A stretch of 64,000 nt of DNA from Escherichia coli (GTDB taxonomy: Bacteria; Pseudomonadota; Gammaproteobacteria; Enterobacterales; Enterobacteriaceae). Shown in pieces: positions 51,777-56,990 of the stretch (position 1 is the stretch's first letter; every line of letters begins with the position of its first letter). The DNA is taken from NCBI RefSeq assembly GCF_003019035.1, contig NZ_CP027447.1. One strand, given 5' to 3'. The notes under the pieces were generated by a model that was not told the origin of the DNA, made no database searches, and was given only the letters and a program-made list of their open reading frames with translations. The translations under genes and the position numbers were made by a program.

Positions 51777-51825
51777 GCCATCAGCCTTTTCTTTAAAGAC
51801 ATATTATCTTTGTATCATTTCTGAT

Positions 51826-53674
51826 AGTTAACATTACAAGATATAAGTAATGGACGCACTCCCAATTAGTCTATTTAAATCGCCACGAGTTTAACTGACA
51901 ACCCATGATCAATTATGAATTGCAACTATTTCTGTAGTCACTTTTGTGGGGACAGTCCACAAAACTGCCAACTTCCGCTTCTTGCTCTTAGCGGACATTA
52001 GCATAGGCTATTTACCATAACGCCTCATTACGCGCACCGCCCAGACTGACTCAGCGCGTTTCTGGCATATCCCCGGTAAAACAAGTAACAAACCACCCGA
52101 AAATGAACACCAGAAACGCGACTTAAGAATCTACCCTATGAATGGATATGCACTCAACCGAATCGATCTTGGTTTCAATCTTTTTTATCGGGATCAGGCT
52201 TCTTTTTAGGTAACTTCGGGGGCTTAACTTGCTGATGACTTTGCGTTCGGCGCGTAAGCCAGGGATGGTCAGCTTTAGGTTTAACATAGTATTTTGAGCG
52301 TAAATCAATACGGGCATTATCCACTCGTTCATGGACACTCTTTTCATCATCCAGTGGTATAGGCTCCGGGCCATCAACATACTTTTCCCAGCCCAGCGCT
52401 TTCCCGTCATACAGAACGTTAATTTCACCGTCAAAGTTCTCGCATACAGTAACAACCGAATGCCTAAGTCGATATCCCCGGCCCTCACTGCGTACCTGAA
52501 ACGCACTGCTTTTGTACTGGAAAGTGAGATTTTTAGACAGAACGCGCTTCGCCTGTAGGCTGAAGATATAACCCAGTTCCTCTTCAGAATGGTGCACATC
52601 AAGATGAGCATTATCAGTAGTACGAGGCGACGTAGCGAACCGGTTGTTATAGGCTTCAATAAAGGTCGGCAACCATGCATTTGCTGTTTCAATATCACTG
52701 ATATTCTGAAGCCGCATTTCTTTGACCAGCCTGTCCTGTAGTGTCTGATTGGCGCGCTCTACCCGCCCTTTTGCCTGCGGGCTGTTGGCATGGATTGGCT
52801 CGATGCCCAGTGTCTTTATCGCACGAGTGAACTGGGTCAGCTCACCTTCCCGCTCTGGGTTATTTACCCTGAATATACTGTGTCTATCAGAGTAGAGAGC
52901 GAGCGGTACGCCATGATCATTAAGGTAACCCCGGAGGGTTTCCATGTAAGCCCGGGTTGTTTCAGCAGGCACAAAACGCAACGCCATCAACGCACTGGTG
53001 GCATCATCAATGAAAACGATCAGTGTACATCTGGGGCCTCGATTTTCAAACCAGTCATGAGGTGAGCCATCAATCTGGATCAGTTCACCGTAAGATGGTC
53101 GTCGCATGCGGCGTTGATATATACGGGCAATTTTACGACGGCGTTCACGCCATAACCCCTCTTCTATCATCCACTTTCTGAGAGTTTCAACGGATAAAGA
53201 TAAACCGTGTATCTCGCGCAATTTTTCGCACGCAAACGTAGGTCCAAAATCAGCGTAACGGCCTTTGAGGAGTGAAATTACTGTTGCTCTGAATTCAGTA
53301 GAAAAGGAATTATTAGGACGCTTTCCACGTCGGTGGGAAACCAGACCAGAAGGCCCTTCATTTCTATACCGTTGCACCAGACGTTTAACCTGCCGAATAG
53401 AAATGCCAATGCGTGCCGCAGCTTGTTCCTGAATAATCTGAAGTCGGTGGAGTTCCTTATGACTCATCGTAACAGTCTCTTTGATCATGAAAAATCCCCC
53501 AGAGAATTGTCTGGGGACATTTTAGAATGGTTCAAAGGGGACATTACAGCTTGGTGTTAACAATAGCCTGCTTCTCCGTGCCTTTCGGCACGTAAGAGGC
53601 TAACCTACATGTGTCTAGCATGAAATTGGCCTCAGATTAATGTTAAGCGTCTTGCAGGACGCGTAATGTTAACT
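51826..53674. mobile_element. Insertion sequence (family uncertain, IS481/ISNCY-like); boundaries tentative
   Basis: Single 437 aa DDE transposase ORF flanked by a 12-bp perfect inverted repeat agttaacattac (51826-51837) / gtaatgttaact (53663-53674); no clear target-site duplication seen. Confidence 0.35.
52175..53488 (-). CDS. DDE transposase with N-terminal HTH and rve-type integrase core
   Basis: 437 aa; HTH near N-terminus (IGISIRQVKRLVQRY); catalytic-triad candidates in IQIDGS, YSDRHSIF and KGRVERANQTL. Confidence 0.8.
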   Translation of the reverse strand: MIKETVTMSHKELHRLQIIQEQAAARIGISIRQVKRLVQRYRNEGPSGLVSHRRGKRPNNSFSTEFRATVISLLKGRYADFGPTFACEKLREIHGLSLSVETLRKWMIEEGLWRERRRKIARIYQRRMRRPSYGELIQIDGSPHDWFENRGPRCTLIVFIDDATSALMALRFVPAETTRAYMETLRGYLNDHGVPLALYSDRHSIFRVNNPEREGELTQFTRAIKTLGIEPIHANSPQAKGRVERANQTLQDRLVKEMRLQNISDIETANAWLPTFIEAYNNRFATSPRTTDNAHLDVHHSEEELGYIFSLQAKRVLSKNLTFQYKSSAFQVRSEGRGYRLRHSVVTVCENFDGEINVLYDGKALGWEKYVDGPEPIPLDDEKSVHERVDNARIDLRSKYYVKPKADHPWLTRRTQSHQQVKPPKLPKKKPDPDKKD

Positions 53675-53822
53675 GGGGCTTTTCTCTATCTGCCGTTGGT
53701 GTCCATGCCCGAGGCAGATAGCCTCAAGCACCCGCAGTCATTCTACTTAACTAAGATTTCCCCGCAAACCGTTTTTGTCCAGCACAGTAAATATCCAACT
53801 AAACCAATGGAGTTCGCTGTAT

Positions 53823-54041
53823 TTACCGCCAGTATTCAATGCACATGACCGCCATGAACACCCCTAAAAAAAGGGCATTTATATATCCAAATATTAATAT
53901 CAAAACATCAACTTTTTCCATATACCTTGCTGTGAAGATGATGGGCATACATGATGCGAACAACCAGAACGCAACAAACAAAAACTGCAATGCGTTTTTC
54001 ATTATTCCTCCTACAATCAATGTGCAATTACATTTAAACAC
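53823..54041 (-). CDS. Hypothetical small membrane protein (two predicted TM helices)
   Basis: 72 aa ORF (likely start MKNALQFLFVAFWLFASCMPIIF...); AT-rich codon usage unlike the flanking phage genes. Confidence 0.4.
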   Translation of the reverse strand: MFKCNCTLIVGGIMKNALQFLFVAFWLFASCMPIIFTARYMEKVDVLILIFGYINALFLGVFMAVMCIEYWR

Positions 54042-54433
54042 ACCTCAATTTGGCCGGACATATAAATATCTAAACCAGAAAAAATCACTTACATAGCGTT
54101 ACAAACTCTTTAGTCTAAAGGTTCATCGTAAAACATTCCCCATACTTATCAGTCCGTTCCGCGCCAGGTAGCTCATTGCCTTATCTGGCAACCTGTAATC
54201 AGGTTTCCGCTTTTTCAGTTGGCTGGTCGTTTAACCGACATAGTTAATCCATTAATCTAGTTGCCGGATGTTGGTGGATTTTCGCGTTTTAGTTGTTCAT
54301 AAAAGTGCACAGCTTTAACCAGTTCTTCTGATGTAACTGGGACTGGTGAGGCAGTGAATAAGGCCTGAATTTGATAGTTCGGCCTGTCGTTACAATCCTC
54401 TTTTTTCGGTACATATTTCCAGTCACCAGACCA

Positions 54434-54892
54434 CTACTTCCCCTGAAAGTCCGTAACGCCTTTTTTCACGTAGCGATATCGCCATGCCACTGGTTTTGCT
54501 TGCCCCGCCGTTTCATGCCCTTCCTGATAATTAATCTCGCTCATTCATCGCCCCACTCATCACAATATGCTTCGACCGGAGTTTTTCCCGCTTCATAGTC
54601 ATCACGCTAGGATTCGACATCAGCAGCACTTCCACCGCGTAACTCACCATAGTCCATTAATAGTTCATCCCGCTCTTCAAAACTGATGTTATATTTAGCT
54701 GAACAAAAATCAGCCACTTTGTTCTTCCTCATCGTCTTTTATTTCGTGGTATGAGTAATTGCAGTAGTTAAAGAAAATTTCTTATGCTCCGTCATGAATT
54801 TCCTCAGGTGTTGCGTCATCGTCCACTTCGAATACATCCTCAAAATCTCCACCAGCTATTCCCGTTTCAATAATAATTTTGAACTTTCGCAT
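54434..54892 (-). other. Cluster of tiny overlapping ORFs (23-41 aa) in shifting frames; probably decayed gene(s)
   Basis: Hand translation gives 36, 41, 23 and 36 aa ORFs at 54782-54892, 54607-54732, 54531-54602 and 54434-54544; an alternative frame across the second gap reads protein-like DDYEAGKTPVEAYCDEWGDE; SD sequences are weak. Confidence 0.3.
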
Positions 54893-55154
54893 TTCACTAC
54901 CGCCCTTTCGGGCGGCCTCCTGATGTTCTGAGGGTGCAGAAATCCATCCGGTTAAGGATTAAATTTTATTTACAGAACTGAATTTAATTATTCAGATATA
55001 CGTATCTGTAGCCTTACGAATCTACTCACTGGATGCCTCTTTCATAAAAATAATCCAGTGGGTTTTATCGTTTTTTCCCTGTTCGTTGACAGATAACAGG
55101 TTTTCTGTCTGTCAGTGCCAGAATCTGGCTTACCGGTATTTGCGTTTCATTCCA

Positions 55155-55511
55155 TTAAAAAATCAGAACGCCGTGCGGCCTCAACACCCGAAAGGCTTCT
55201 TTAAATCTCTGTCGCGAATCATCACGCCAGGCATCTTTATTCAGCCGTCCATATTTCTTTCCCATCCAGGCGTTATCACCAACACTCTCAAGATGCGGAG
55301 GGTCTAATACAACCATCGAAAAAGATGCGTCTGCAAATGATAATGCACGAAAATCTGCGATAATGTCAGGGCTGATAATCAAGCGTCTCCCATTGCGTAA
55401 TGTGTATCCTTCTTTTCTGATATCGCTGAATATCGCCCGTTCGTCAGACTTATCGAACCAGAACATGCGGCTGCCACAGCACATATCAAGAATGGTTGCC
55501 GGTGCACTCAC
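55155..55511 (-). CDS. SAM-dependent methyltransferase-like protein (motif I and DPPH motif IV), possibly truncated
   Basis: 118 aa; ILDMCCGSR resembles SAM-binding motif I and VVLDPPH resembles the D/N-PP-Y/F/H motif IV of amino-methyltransferases; too short for a complete DNA MTase. Confidence 0.45.
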   Translation of the reverse strand: MSAPATILDMCCGSRMFWFDKSDERAIFSDIRKEGYTLRNGRRLIISPDIIADFRALSFADASFSMVVLDPPHLESVGDNAWMGKKYGRLNKDAWRDDSRQRFKEAFRVLRPHGVLIF

Positions 55512-55930
55512 TGCGCCACGTCCTGAAAATTACCCTGATAGAAAGCCAGTATGCGCTGCATAACTTCGCTCTTCCGGCACTCGCGACAGATTATGTTTAG
55601 GCGACTGTCGTAGCGACGTATTTCTCCGTCAGGTGATGACCAGATAAGGTCCGGATCAACCACAGCAGGTTTCTTCACCTTTGCCCTCGAGAGTTTTTTG
55701 CGGGCGTTTTGCCAGTCCTTACGCGCCTGTTCAGAGGGGAATAACCCGTAGCCGGAGTTGTATACATCGCCACTGGCTACCAGCTCTCTGGCAAGAACGC
55801 TCATCAGATATCTAGTCGCACCTGTTTTAGCTTCCAGTTGCCGTAACGTCTCACGGCCGCTCTGGCGCACGAGTTCCACCACCTGCCATTTAATTTTTTC
55901 CCGCTCTTCTTGTGTAAAAACTTTTGCCAC
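55508..55930 (-). CDS. Hypothetical protein (early-region, possible DNA-binding)
   Basis: 140 aa; basic; CRECR near C-terminus; stop overlaps the start of the methyltransferase-like ORF. Confidence 0.5.
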   Translation of the reverse strand: MAKVFTQEEREKIKWQVVELVRQSGRETLRQLEAKTGATRYLMSVLARELVASGDVYNSGYGLFPSEQARKDWQNARKKLSRAKVKKPAVVDPDLIWSSPDGEIRRYDSRLNIICRECRKSEVMQRILAFYQGNFQDVAQ

Positions 55931-55970
55931 AAGTCCCCCTTAAAATTACCTCATGACCTGAAATCAACAC

Positions 55971-56990
55971 TTATCCTCTGAAACCAGGCGGAATTTCTGT
56001 ATCCGGTTCAGAAATATGATTAACACAACGCTGTACAGGTGAACGTCCCAGGCGGATGACCAGTTCGTCCCATTTTTCGCGGAGCTTTGACGGGCTCATG
56101 ATGTTTTTTACCCAGAATGGATCTCGCTGAACCCGACCAAACATTTCGCAAATTTGTCTGTGGCTTCTGCCATCCAGCATCCGCATTGTGCGCACGTCAT
56201 TGGCCCAGGCAGTCCAGTTAGGCTCTTTTGGTCGCATGATCTCGCCATCATCACTGGCTGCCTGTTCGTAGAGACCCACGATCCGCCCCCAGATCCACTG
56301 CGCACACGCCAAATCCTCCCTGCTACCCCACTGGCGTTTTTTCGCACTAAACACAACCGCGTCGGAGTTCCGGGTTAAAAAATCCTGTTCAGTCGTCTGC
56401 GGGTCCGGTTGCGAAGCTTCCGGACGAAAAGTGTTTTTATTCTCTGTAGTAATCTCTGTTGTATTCTCTGTAAGATCATCAGGCCATTTTGACCCGATGA
56501 CATTGGGTCGTTTTGAACCAATGGAGCGTTTCATTTTGACCTCTTCCATCGTGTCATTTTGACCTGATGGAGCGGCGCATTTTGAACCGATGGATTCGCT
56601 CAATTTGCCACCATCTAAAAGCTCGCTCCCATAGTTGATCGTGTAGAAATTGGTCATATCGCGCTTTGATTTATTGAGCTTTTCACAACGCAAAAGCCCC
56701 AGCGTTTTCAGACTTGCAAACGCGCGCTTTAACGTTGACTCTGACCAGAATGGGAACTGTTCCAGCCATTGTTCCGTTGTGTTATAAATCCAGCGAACAC
56801 CATCACATTCCATGCCGGAGTTGGTATCTCTCAACCAGTAGTGCAGTTGTTGCAAAACAATGGCTTCGTTTAAGCCAATTTTCATTGCCAGCTGCGTGTT
56901 TATAACCAGTGGGCGTTCAGCAAAAAGAAGGCTCATAATTCCATCCAGCTTTTTGTTGGTATTGCTGTCGATACGCAAGTTTGAAAGCAA
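55971..56990 (-). CDS. Putative replication initiation protein (replisome-organiser-like)
   Basis: 339 aa ORF in the position of lambda O, downstream of the cro-like dicC; N-terminal winged-helix-like segment; start may be the internal MSLLFAERPLV. Confidence 0.45.
   Translation of the reverse strand: MLSNLRIDSNTNKKLDGIMSLLFAERPLVINTQLAMKIGLNEAIVLQQLHYWLRDTNSGMECDGVRWIYNTTEQWLEQFPFWSESTLKRAFASLKTLGLLRCEKLNKSKRDMTNFYTINYGSELLDGGKLSESIGSKCAAPSGQNDTMEEVKMKRSIGSKRPNVIGSKWPDDLTENTTEITTENKNTFRPEASQPDPQTTEQDFLTRNSDAVVFSAKKRQWGSREDLACAQWIWGRIVGLYEQAASDDGEIMRPKEPNWTAWANDVRTMRMLDGRSHRQICEMFGRVQRDPFWVKNIMSPSKLREKWDELVIRLGRSPVQRCVNHISEPDTEIPPGFRG

What the first reader, a model, noticed from the sequence alone, without database searches (positions are those of the whole stretch)
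54893..55155. Non-coding AT-rich spacer with a GNRA-loop hairpin and a 30-bp palindrome downstream of the methyltransferase-like gene
ccgccc-gaaa-gggcgg forms a stable GNRA tetraloop hairpin without a T-run, and tgacagataacaggttttctgtctgtca is a near-perfect palindrome. Neither looks like a simple terminator; they could be protein-binding sites, an RNA processing signal or an origin-associated element.
Basis: seen in the sequence. Interest (0 to 1): 0.25.

Follow-up and report, generated by a model that had tools for sequence, protein, structure and literature searches.

The report
Decayed gene tail plus ribosome-site hairpin
The "spacer" is half the dead tail of a broken phage methyltransferase gene (the palindrome sits in it and means nothing), and half a short linker, shared among E. 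coli lambdoid phages, whose GC-rich hairpin sits between a strong ribosome-binding sequence and the start codon of the next small gene, which is itself broken here.

Summary
The window holds a fuller copy of the E. coli cryptic prophage Qin, and the genes around the finding lie on the minus strand.

**What the spacer is**
- 55022-55154 is not intergenic. It is the 3' end of the methyltransferase ORF, cut off by an AAA->TAA nonsense codon (55157-55155) and a +1 A frameshift (A-run 55071-55076).
- The "palindrome" (55087-55114) falls on the codons LTDRKPVIC. It folds no better than shuffled sequence, and 90 homologues do not conserve it.
- The true intergenic part is 54893-55021.

**The hairpin**
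- The hairpin is real at 54900-54915: -14.8 kcal/mol, with 0 of 200 shuffles folding as well.
- It is one part of a conserved cassette: AGGAGG, then CCGCCC-GAAA-GGGCGG, then 6-8 nt, then ATG.
- The same cassette precedes at least three unrelated small genes in lambdoid phages: DUF7167, a 72-aa membrane protein and a third family.

**Best reading (inferred)**
- This is a split translation-initiation region like T4 genes 38 and 25. The hairpin shortens the SD-to-AUG distance from 23 nt to about 7 nt.
- Covariation is too weak to prove an RNA structure.
- In this window the downstream gene is a pseudogene, so the cassette is a relic.

It is not a terminator, a nut site or an origin. Interest is modest.

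The parts
55155..55511 (-). Truncated class I SAM-dependent (DNA) methyltransferase ORF: 118 codons plus a premature TAA at 55157-55155
   Evidence: ORF list. RefSeq annotates it as WP_001310834.1. At this codon all 116 homologous genes sampled have AAA or AAG (Lys).
55022..55154 (-). Relic 3' coding region of the methyltransferase (WNETQIPVSQILALTDRKPVICQRTGK.. THWIIFMKEASSE*), ending at the ancestral TAG 55024-55022
   Evidence: In-frame translation. The repaired protein aligns end to end with 244 phage methyltransferases. DNA alignment to intact genes. The doubly repaired 162-aa protein matches phrog_954 over residues 5-161, E = 6.7e-80.
55071..55076 (-). A6 run carrying a +1 insertion (GGGAAAAAACGAT against GGGAAGAACGAT in intact genes). 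It shifts the frame and creates a TAA at 55067-55065
   Evidence: Alignment gap at this point.
55087..55114 (.).
   Evidence: z = -2.0 and -1.4; 51% of pair cells kept in 90 homologues, and wobble positions do not covary.
55024..55063 (.). Second inverted repeat (11-nt arms, 18-nt loop) on the codons THWIIFMKEASSE. It is a by-product of relic coding sequence
   Evidence: z = -4.45. The far arm is absent in the Salmonella and Klebsiella homologues.
54893..55021 (-). True intergenic segment. 54922-54995 is an AT-rich linker that recurs between accessory genes of E. coli lambdoid phages
   Evidence: Window 54890-54995 matches ArgO145 L003 2501-2598 at 87%. 21 phage records carry it. The same junction follows an intact methyltransferase gene in L269.
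54930..54949 (-). Upstream helper stem. The common form is GGAGGG...CCCUC. Here it is mutated to GGAUGG, so CCUC can pair with the Shine-Dalgarno sequence instead
   Evidence: Upstream contexts. Folding and unpaired probabilities for the window form against the common form.
54916..54921 (-). Shine-Dalgarno sequence AGGAGG, 23 nt upstream of the ATG
   Evidence: Duplex energy with the 16S 3' end is -10.3 kcal/mol. In sequences anchored only on the gene start it varies only to GGGAGG or AGGAAG, and a rare recombinant form lacks it entirely.
54900..54915 (-). GNRA-tetraloop hairpin CCGCCC-GAAA-GGGCGG. A seventh G.U pair uses the last G of the SD and the first U of the spacer
   Evidence: (pairing probability about 1). 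Conservation.
54893..54899 (-). 7-nt single-stranded spacer UAGUGAA between the hairpin and the AUG
   Evidence: The spacer is 6-8 nt in all cassette copies.
54710..54892 (-). DUF7167 pseudogene: ATG at 54892-54890 and an internal TAA at 54784-54782 replacing Lys
   Evidence: Pfam PF23768, E = 3e-13, with the profile starting at residue 2. RefSeq notes 'internal stop'. Intact 60-aa homologues.

Best explanation
The 263-bp 'spacer' is a composite left behind by decay of the Qin cryptic prophage.

(1) 55022-55154 is the dead 3' end of a phage DNA methyltransferase gene. The gene was inactivated by an AAA->TAA nonsense mutation and a +1 frameshift. Both the palindrome and a second inverted repeat are incidental features of that former coding sequence and have no function of their own.

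(2) 54893-55021 is a short linker that E. coli lambdoid phages reuse between small accessory genes. It ends in a portable translation-initiation cassette: a strong Shine-Dalgarno sequence (AGGAGG), immediately followed by a very stable 6-7-bp GNRA-tetraloop hairpin, then 6-8 unpaired bases, then the AUG.

The proposed mechanism is a split ribosome-binding site. In the mRNA the hairpin folds and loops out 16 nt, so the SD, which is 23 nt from the AUG in the linear sequence, is presented at an effective distance of about 7 nt. The 30S subunit can then engage both. T4 genes 38 and 25 work this way.

Shown here: the anatomy, the relic coding sequence, conservation of the cassette, and its use in front of unrelated genes. 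Inferred: that the hairpin forms in vivo and promotes initiation rather than blocking it. In this window the cassette is a relic, because the DUF7167 gene it serves has an internal stop and the upstream helper stem is mutated.
For: Relic coding sequence:
- The in-frame continuation after the TAA reads WNETQIPVSQ....
- All 116 sampled homologues have Lys at the TAA position.
- The repaired protein aligns over its full length with 244 phage methyltransferases and with phrog_954 at E = 7e-80.
- The frameshift is visible in the alignment.

Palindrome not conserved. Not beyond chance.

Cassette:
- Hairpin MFE is -14.8 kcal/mol with 0 of 200 shuffles as good, and its pairing probability in context is about 1. 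In the common variant the SD stays mostly unpaired, at 0.62-0.82 per base.
- AGGAGG binds the anti-SD at -10.3 kcal/mol.
- The cassette is flush with the SD in every copy, and the spacer to the ATG is always 6-8 nt.
- The same cassette precedes DUF7167 (phrog_1997), a 72-aa protein (phrog_1832) and a third family (MAELTKEQ...). The copies sit in different reading frames relative to the ATG, so the cassette is non-coding and portable.
- Family profiles begin at the ATG after the hairpin.
- One G-C to A-U compensatory change is seen, and 12 U.G cells are tolerated on the mRNA-sense strand, against 4 A.C-type cells that would suit the antisense strand.

Precedent: in T4 genes 38 and 25 a hairpin reduces the SD-AUG spacing from 22 to 5 nt and from 27 to 11 nt, and destabilising it lowers translation (PMC3014915).
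Against: - Covariation is statistically empty. There is one compensatory pair, and 152 of 500 shuffles reach the observed value. The copies are so similar that sequence conservation alone explains the 95% pairing.
- 11 variant cells break a pair, yet those copies persist.
- The 3' arm GGGCGGU is itself a moderate SD-like sequence (-7.8 kcal/mol) at normal spacing, so the hairpin could equally be inhibitory.
- Distant homologues of DUF7167 (L212) and of the 72-aa protein (L252) use ordinary ribosome-binding sites without any hairpin, so the hairpin is not required for these genes.
- No expression data were available.
- In this window the downstream gene is dead, so no function can be claimed for this copy.
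Confidence: 0.5

Rival explanations
1. The hairpin is a negative translational element. It would work either by sequestering the SD-like 3' arm (GGGCGGU) and sterically hindering the 30S subunit, or by serving as the operator for a phage or host RNA-binding protein that sits between the SD and the AUG and represses these accessory genes.
For: The 3' arm pairs with the anti-SD at -7.8 kcal/mol, at the position where distant homologues carry their conventional SD (GGGGGAG or GGGAG). The stem is very stable. GNRA-type loops are known protein-recognition sites, lambda N with boxB being one example (my own knowledge). An upstream CCCUC element can pair with either a pseudo-SD or the real SD, which resembles a switch.
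Against: A perfect AGGAGG is conserved immediately 5' of the stem and stays unpaired in the common variant. There would be no reason to keep it if the cassette existed only to silence. No candidate binding protein was identified. The geometry matches the activating T4 examples.
Confidence: 0.2
2. The hairpin is an intercistronic mRNA stabiliser or processing boundary. It would protect the upstream cistron's 3' end from exonucleases, or the downstream cistron's 5' end after cleavage.
For: It is a GC-rich stable stem without a U-run, located 3-100 nt after upstream stop codons. It recurs in intergenic positions up to twice per locus.
Against: Its position is fixed relative to the downstream SD and AUG, not relative to the upstream stop, whose distance varies from 10 nt to about 100 nt. 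At 7 bp it is too short for RNase III (my own knowledge).
Confidence: 0.12
3. The conserved linker and hairpin matter at the DNA level. They would act as a 'boundary sequence' that provides homology for recombinational shuffling of accessory-gene cassettes, or as a target of a homing endonuclease. Any RNA structure would be incidental.
For: The linker is nearly identical at different junctions and is repeated within one phage: three partial copies lie within 1.4 kb of ArgO145. It borders different genes, namely Ea22-like, LygF and the methyltransferase. L067 shows a fusion in which the cassette and the first codons are joined to another gene. An HNH endonuclease gene lies next to one copy. Covariation does not demonstrate an RNA structure.
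Against: This reading does not explain why the stem always abuts an SD and lies 6-8 nt from an ATG. Recombination homology needs no palindrome. The variants favour U.G (fine in sense RNA, a mismatch in DNA) at 12 cells against 4. This explanation is compatible with the main one rather than exclusive of it.
Confidence: 0.1
4. One reading: the hairpin and the palindrome are protein-binding sites of an origin-associated element, a nut-like antitermination site, or an unusual terminator downstream of the methyltransferase gene.
For: The region is somewhat AT-rich at 40.7% GC and lies downstream of the replication genes. The loop is GNRA, as in the folded form of boxB.
Against: There are no direct-repeat families with three or more copies. 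No boxA is found even with 2 mismatches allowed. The loop is a tetraloop, not a pentaloop. No terminator is called in 54893-55154, and the only nearby minus-strand call is a weak G.U-rich stem inside the methyltransferase ORF at 55189-55166. Nothing in Rfam matches. The palindrome lies in relic coding sequence and is not conserved.
Confidence: 0.03

Closest known systems
Split translation-initiation regions of bacteriophage T4 genes 38 and 25 (Nivinskas et al. 1999; Malys & Nivinskas 2009; reviewed in PMC3014915)
   Same: The SD lies too far from the AUG in linear sequence: 23 nt here, 22 and 27 nt in T4. A stable hairpin lies exactly between them. Removing the hairpin from the path gives a functional spacing: about 7 nt here, 5 and 11 nt in T4.
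   Different: The phage group differs: temperate lambdoid phages, not T-even phages. The stem here is a minimal 6-7-bp GC helix with a GAAA tetraloop. The cassette is portable and serves at least three unrelated genes rather than one locus. No experimental test exists. The copy in this window serves a pseudogene.
Lambda-type nut site boxB hairpin (N-dependent antitermination)
   Same: It is a short GC stem capped by a GNRA-type fold in an early transcript of a lambdoid phage.
   Different: boxB has a 5-nt loop and a boxA partner, and lies just downstream of pL or pR (my own knowledge). Here the loop is 4 nt, there is no boxA, the element abuts start codons in the accessory region, and it occurs up to twice per locus.
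PeSL mobile regulatory cassettes of T4-type phages, and 'boundary sequences' at module junctions of lambdoid phages (recalled from the literature, not checked here)
   Same: These are short conserved intergenic units containing a stem-loop and expression signals. They flank small accessory genes and provide homology for shuffling them.
   Different: PeSLs carry an early promoter plus a stem-loop. No promoter is detectable here, and the unit carries a translation signal instead.
Phage orphan DNA methyltransferases of the phrog_954 family (class I SAM-dependent, DPPH motif)
   Same: The truncated ORF plus the 'spacer' sequence reconstitute a full-length member: 162 aa, E = 7e-80, with 56-84% identity to intact genes from other phages across the listed hits.
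   Different: This copy carries a nonsense codon and a frameshift. RefSeq annotates only the 118-aa stump.

Membership tests
Split (hairpin-bridged) translation initiation region, T4 gene 38/25 type | A Shine-Dalgarno sequence lies too far upstream of the start codon (>13 nt) to act in linear form | tested here: met
   AGGAGG at 54921-54916 and ATG at 54892-54890 leave 23 nt between them. Anti-SD duplex energy is -10.3 kcal/mol.
Split (hairpin-bridged) translation initiation region, T4 gene 38/25 type | A stable secondary structure occupies the interval, and the effective spacing without it is 5-11 nt | tested here: met
   The 16-nt hairpin has an MFE of -14.8 kcal/mol and a pairing probability of about 1. 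The residual spacer is 7 nt here and 6-8 nt in all copies.
Split (hairpin-bridged) translation initiation region, T4 gene 38/25 type | No competing accessible SD at normal spacing | tested here: inconclusive
   The 3' arm GGGCGGU would bind the anti-SD at -7.8 kcal/mol at normal spacing, but it is locked inside the stem.
Split (hairpin-bridged) translation initiation region, T4 gene 38/25 type | The structure is supported by compensatory variation among relatives | tested here: inconclusive
   95% of cells are paired, but there is only one double change, and 152 of 500 shuffles do as well.
Split (hairpin-bridged) translation initiation region, T4 gene 38/25 type | Destabilising the hairpin lowers translation, and restoring it rescues translation | not testable with these tools
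   This needs reporter fusions or toeprinting.
nut site (boxA + boxB) | A boxA motif lies a few nt upstream of the hairpin | tested here: not met
   No match to CGCTCTTA or TGCTCTTTA with up to 2 mismatches in 54893-55160.
nut site (boxB) | A 5-nt GNRA-like pentaloop on a 5-bp stem, present once downstream of each early promoter | tested here: not met
   The loop is 4 nt (GAAA). The element abuts start codons and occurs up to twice per locus.
Intrinsic (Rho-independent) terminator | A GC-rich stem followed by a U-run | tested here: not met
   The stem is followed by UAGUGAAAUG. The scan calls no site in 54893-55154.
Lambdoid replication origin | An array of iterons (three or more direct repeats) next to an AT-rich stretch | tested here: not met
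   Only two-copy, 11-19-nt chance-level direct repeats are found in 54700-55300.
Any curated RNA family (Rfam 15) | A covariance-model match | tested here: not met
   No hit falls in 54893-55155 even at E <= 10. The only real hit nearby is sok at 53562-53733.
Phage DNA methyltransferase phrog_954 / class I SAM-dependent MTase (for 55022-55511) | Full-length collinear similarity, including the C-terminal KWNETQIP...THW block | tested here: met
   The match is met only after repairing the TAA and the +1 frameshift, so this copy is a pseudogene.

The most novel reading that the evidence does not exclude
The roughly 70-nt unit (pseudo-SD GGAGGG, anti-SD-like CCCUC, true SD AGGAGG, GNRA hairpin, AUG) is a self-contained, mobile translational control module of lambdoid phages. 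In this reading it is a riboregulator or protein operator that times the expression of small accessory or host-takeover genes, and it spreads from gene to gene by recombination at the linker. No such portable post-transcriptional cassette has been described for temperate coliphages.
Probability: 0.12. Interest if true: 0.5.

Novelty: new member of a known kind. Interest (0 to 1): 0.27.

Why it matters
For genome annotation, the result shows that a 263-bp "intergenic" gap in a very common E. coli prophage is mostly a methyltransferase pseudogene tail. The junction covers at least 80% of the query in 485 of 5426 complete genomes. The 118-aa "class I SAM-dependent methyltransferase" annotated in RefSeq is therefore a truncated stump.

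For phage biology, the SD-hairpin-AUG cassette would be a natural example, outside the T-even phages, of a structure-bridged ribosome-binding site. It is compact (a 16-nt GAAA hairpin) and modular. That could explain why gene callers sometimes pick wrong upstream starts for these genes: 87-aa calls appear instead of 60 aa. It could also be a handy part for synthetic biology. It is easy to test with reporter fusions. It does not bear on any long-standing open question.

Tried and rejected
- **Rfam** search of 53500-56500 at E <= 10 found nothing in the spacer.
- **Promoter and terminator scan** found nothing credible in the spacer. The one minus-strand terminator-like call, at 55189-55166, is a weak G.U-rich stem inside the methyltransferase ORF.
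- **Searching for divergent DUF7167 loci** to obtain covariation did not help. `search for related loci` returned 80 loci, all 100% identical at protein level. The 5.8-billion-protein search showed that the family is essentially confined to E. coli, with identity of at least 62%. The most distant members either sit in the same Qin context or lack the cassette altogether.
- **Formal pair counting on 31 distinct cassette variants** gave no significant covariation.
- **A general scan of about 300 fetched loci** for any SD, flush perfect hairpin and start codon found only this one family.
- **The idea that the 13-codon mini-ORF** (GTG 55028 to TAA 54987) is an internally deleted Ea22-like gene was not supported. 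No full-length gene with that 3' end exists among the fetched loci. It remains speculation, based on the Stx2c phage arrangement.
- **A possible compensatory change in the palindrome** between the window and the Stx2c phage (GACAGA/TCTGTC against GACCGA/TCGGTC) did not hold up across 90 homologues.
- **Literature searches** for the hairpin sequence and for DUF7167 returned nothing.
- **The SPP1 paper** turned up by one search was irrelevant.

Full report
**Context.** The window around the finding is a more complete version of the E. coli cryptic prophage Qin. A 651-bp query spanning the finding is 100% identical in many complete E. coli genomes, including ATCC 8739. It covers at least 80% of the query in 485 of 5426 genomes, and parts of it occur in 2606 genomes. 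RefSeq annotation of the ATCC 8739 copy gives the gene order on the window's minus strand:
- dicA and dicC, a YdaT-like gene, a replication-protein-like gene, a DUF977 gene and a 118-aa "class I SAM-dependent methyltransferase";
- then the gap in question;
- then a DUF7167 pseudogene ("internal stop"), a frameshifted hypothetical gene, an ISNCY transposase, ydfW, flxA, relBE and hokD.

**Checking the observation.** The hairpin CCGCCC-GAAA-GGGCGG is present at 54915-54900 on the minus strand.
- Alone it folds at -14.8 kcal/mol, counting an extra G.U pair. None of 200 dinucleotide shuffles folds as well.
- Perfect 6-bp GC-rich stems with a GNRA loop occur three times in the window, against 0.27 expected. 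The other two sit in a sok/hok leader and in a terminator.

The "30-bp palindrome" is the 28-nt string at 55087-55114.
- It is imperfect, with two alternative registers, 9 of 10 in the tool's register.
- It folds at about -10 kcal/mol with z = -2.0 (minus strand) and -1.4 (plus strand). 9 and 14 of 200 shuffles do as well.

**Half of the "spacer" is dead coding sequence.**
- Reading on from the methyltransferase stop in the same frame gives ...HGVLIF*WNETQIPVSQILALTDRKPVICQRTGKKR*.
- With the TAA replaced by Lys, the protein aligns over its whole length with methyltransferase genes in 244 phage records, from Stx2c phages (84%) to Gordonia and Acinetobacter phages (55-60%).
- A pattern scan that did not constrain the codon in question recovered 116 homologous genes. 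All have AAA or AAG where the window has TAA.
- Alignment with intact genes from an Stx2c phage, Salmonella phage Oslo and a Klebsiella phage shows a second lesion. One extra A in an A-run (55071-55076) shifts the frame. In the ancestral frame the ORF continues ...GKNDKTHWIIFMKEASSE and ends at TAG 55024-55022.
- The doubly repaired 162-aa protein matches the phage DNA methyltransferase family phrog_954 over residues 5-161, E = 6.7e-80.
- An IMG/VR contig (L269) has the intact gene followed by the same downstream junction, so the junction is older than the lesions.

It follows that 55022-55154 is a pseudogene tail. The palindrome lies on the codons L-T-D-R-K-P-V-I-C, and the second inverted repeat on T-H-W-I-I-F-M-K-E-A-S-S-E.

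**The palindrome is not conserved.** I projected the window's ten predicted pairs onto 90 distinct homologous segments, which are in register and ungapped.
- Only 51% of cells are standard pairs, against 27-37% for slid controls. Some excess is expected, because the structure was derived from one member of the set.
- The median homologue keeps 5 of 10 pairs.
- Only the two closest E. coli sequences keep all ten.
- The wobble-position pairs do not covary.

The far arm of the 55024-55063 repeat is likewise missing outside the E. coli clade.

**The true intergenic segment and the hairpin.** 54893-55021 (129 nt) is non-coding. Its distal 100 nt (54890-54995) is a linker that recurs in E. coli lambdoid phages.
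- In ArgO145 it matches the gap between an Ea22-like gene and gp12 (87% identity). Shorter parts match two other gaps within 1.4 kb.
- 21 phage records carry it, including Stx2a phages, mEp460, Rac-type phages and PhiR42_1.
- In a Rac-type sequence it lies between lygF (DUF977) and the DUF7167 gene.

The linker ends in a fixed arrangement: cAGGAGG, then CCGCCCGAAAGGGCGG, then UAGUGAA, then AUG.

I collected copies in two ways. One was a pattern that left the stem free. The other, less biased, anchored only on the downstream gene starts or used a fuzzy match. These gave the following.
- The SD is AGGAGG in nearly all copies. The variants are GGGAGG, a single AGGAAG, and a rare recombinant form that lacks the SD.
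- The hairpin always abuts the SD, and the spacer to the ATG is always 6-8 nt.
- The cassette precedes at least three unrelated genes: DUF7167 (phrog_1997, 57-60 aa), a 72-aa hydrophobic protein (phrog_1832) and a third protein beginning MAELTKEQ.
- Spacer lengths differ between copies, which places the cassette in different frames. It is therefore non-coding.
- Pfam and PHROG profiles begin at the ATG that follows the hairpin, which confirms the start codon.

**Mechanism.** In linear sequence the SD is 23 nt from the AUG, which is too far. With the 16-nt hairpin folded, the path is 7 nt.
- In context the stem has a pairing probability of about 1.
- In the common variant the SD bases are 62-82% unpaired, because an upstream GGAGGG pairs with the CCCUC that could otherwise mask the SD.
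- AGGAGG binds the 16S 3' end at -10.3 kcal/mol.

T4 genes 38 and 25 have this same geometry. There a hairpin shortens 22 nt to 5 and 27 nt to 11, and destabilising it lowers translation (PMC3014915). I therefore take the hairpin to be the structural bridge of a split ribosome-binding site. This is an inference from anatomy and precedent.

**Limits of the evidence.** Across 31 distinct variants, 95% of cells pair. However, there is only one compensatory G-C to A-U change, and 152 of 500 column shuffles do as well. The copies are too similar for covariation to speak.
- One-sided changes favour U.G, which is tolerated only in the sense RNA: 12 cells, against 4 A.C-type cells. Another 7 cells are plainly broken.
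- The 3' arm GGGCGGU is itself SD-like (-7.8 kcal/mol) at normal spacing.
- It resembles the conventional RBS of distant homologues that lack the hairpin: GGGGGAGUGAAAG-AUG in L212 and GGGAGUGAU-AUG in L252.

A repressive role by sequestration, or a protein operator, therefore cannot be excluded. An mRNA-stabiliser role and a DNA-level role as recombination homology are also open. The DNA-level role is compatible with the main reading: L067 shows the cassette plus its first codons fused to a different gene.

**What it is not.**
- No Rfam family matches.
- No promoter or terminator is called in the spacer, and no U-run follows the stem.
- There is no boxA, and the loop is a tetraloop rather than the boxB pentaloop.
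- There are no iteron-like repeats.

**State in this window.** The copy here is a relic.
- DUF7167 has Lys->TAA at 54784-54782.
- The helper stem is mutated (GGAGGG->GGAUGG), so CCUC now pairs with part of the SD. Two SD bases have unpaired probabilities of only 0.13-0.31.
- Together with the two methyltransferase lesions, that makes three inactivating mutations within about 400 bp, as expected in a decaying cryptic prophage.

**Verdict.** The palindrome is ordinary. The hairpin belongs to a conserved, portable SD-hairpin-AUG cassette that most likely works like the T4 split initiation regions. I found no description of such a cassette in lambdoid phages. It is a new member of a known kind, of modest interest, and easy to test.

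Noticed in passing
window 53562-53733 (-): There is a strong Rfam match to the sok antitoxin / hok mRNA leader (RF01794, 104 bits, E = 7e-24). No Hok ORF follows it. The leader runs straight into the ISNCY element, whose transposase ATG is at 53488, and tblastn with HokD finds nothing in 51800-54300. The toxin gene appears to have been displaced by the IS, leaving an orphan sok/leader.
   Followed up: partly
window 54782-54784, 55155-55157 and 55071-55076: Three inactivating lesions lie within about 400 bp. Two are Lys (AAA/AAG)->TAA nonsense codons, one in DUF7167 and one in the methyltransferase. The third is a +1 A in an A-run of the methyltransferase. All three are shared at 100% identity by many E. 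coli genomes. RefSeq annotates the 118-aa methyltransferase stump as an ordinary protein (WP_001310834.1).
   Followed up: yes
window 54930-54949 with 54916-54921 (-): A three-part arrangement resembles a small switch. In most phage copies the upstream GGAGGG pairs with CCCUC and leaves the true SD free. In the Qin copy a G->U change frees CCUC to pair with the SD.
   Followed up: partly
window 54987-55028 (-): A 13-codon mini-ORF (GTG AGT AGA ... TCT GAA TAA) overlaps the relic methyltransferase stop. It starts where Stx2c phages start an Ea22-like gene (GTGAGCAAGATTGAC...). It ends with the CTGAATAA that ends an Ea22-like gene in ArgO145. It may be an internally deleted Ea22-like gene, but no full-length counterpart was found.
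   Followed up: partly
L212/L213 158-337 and L252 near 1488: Distant homologues of DUF7167 and of the 72-aa protein use conventional ribosome-binding sites (GGGGGAGUGAAAG-AUG and GGGAGUGAU-AUG). Their sequences resemble the 3' arm plus spacer of the cassette (GGGCGGUAGUGAA-AUG). This hints that the hairpin evolved around an older SD.
   Followed up: no
proteins P0002, P0003, P0006: Some database entries call DUF7167 as 87 aa instead of 60 aa, starting 27 codons upstream and reading through the hairpin. This is probably a gene-caller error provoked by the unusual SD-to-ATG distance.
   Followed up: no
window 52175-53488 (-): An intact 437-aa ISNCY-family transposase ORF lies between the decayed accessory region and ydfW/flxA. 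The ATCC 8739 copy is annotated as partial.
   Followed up: no
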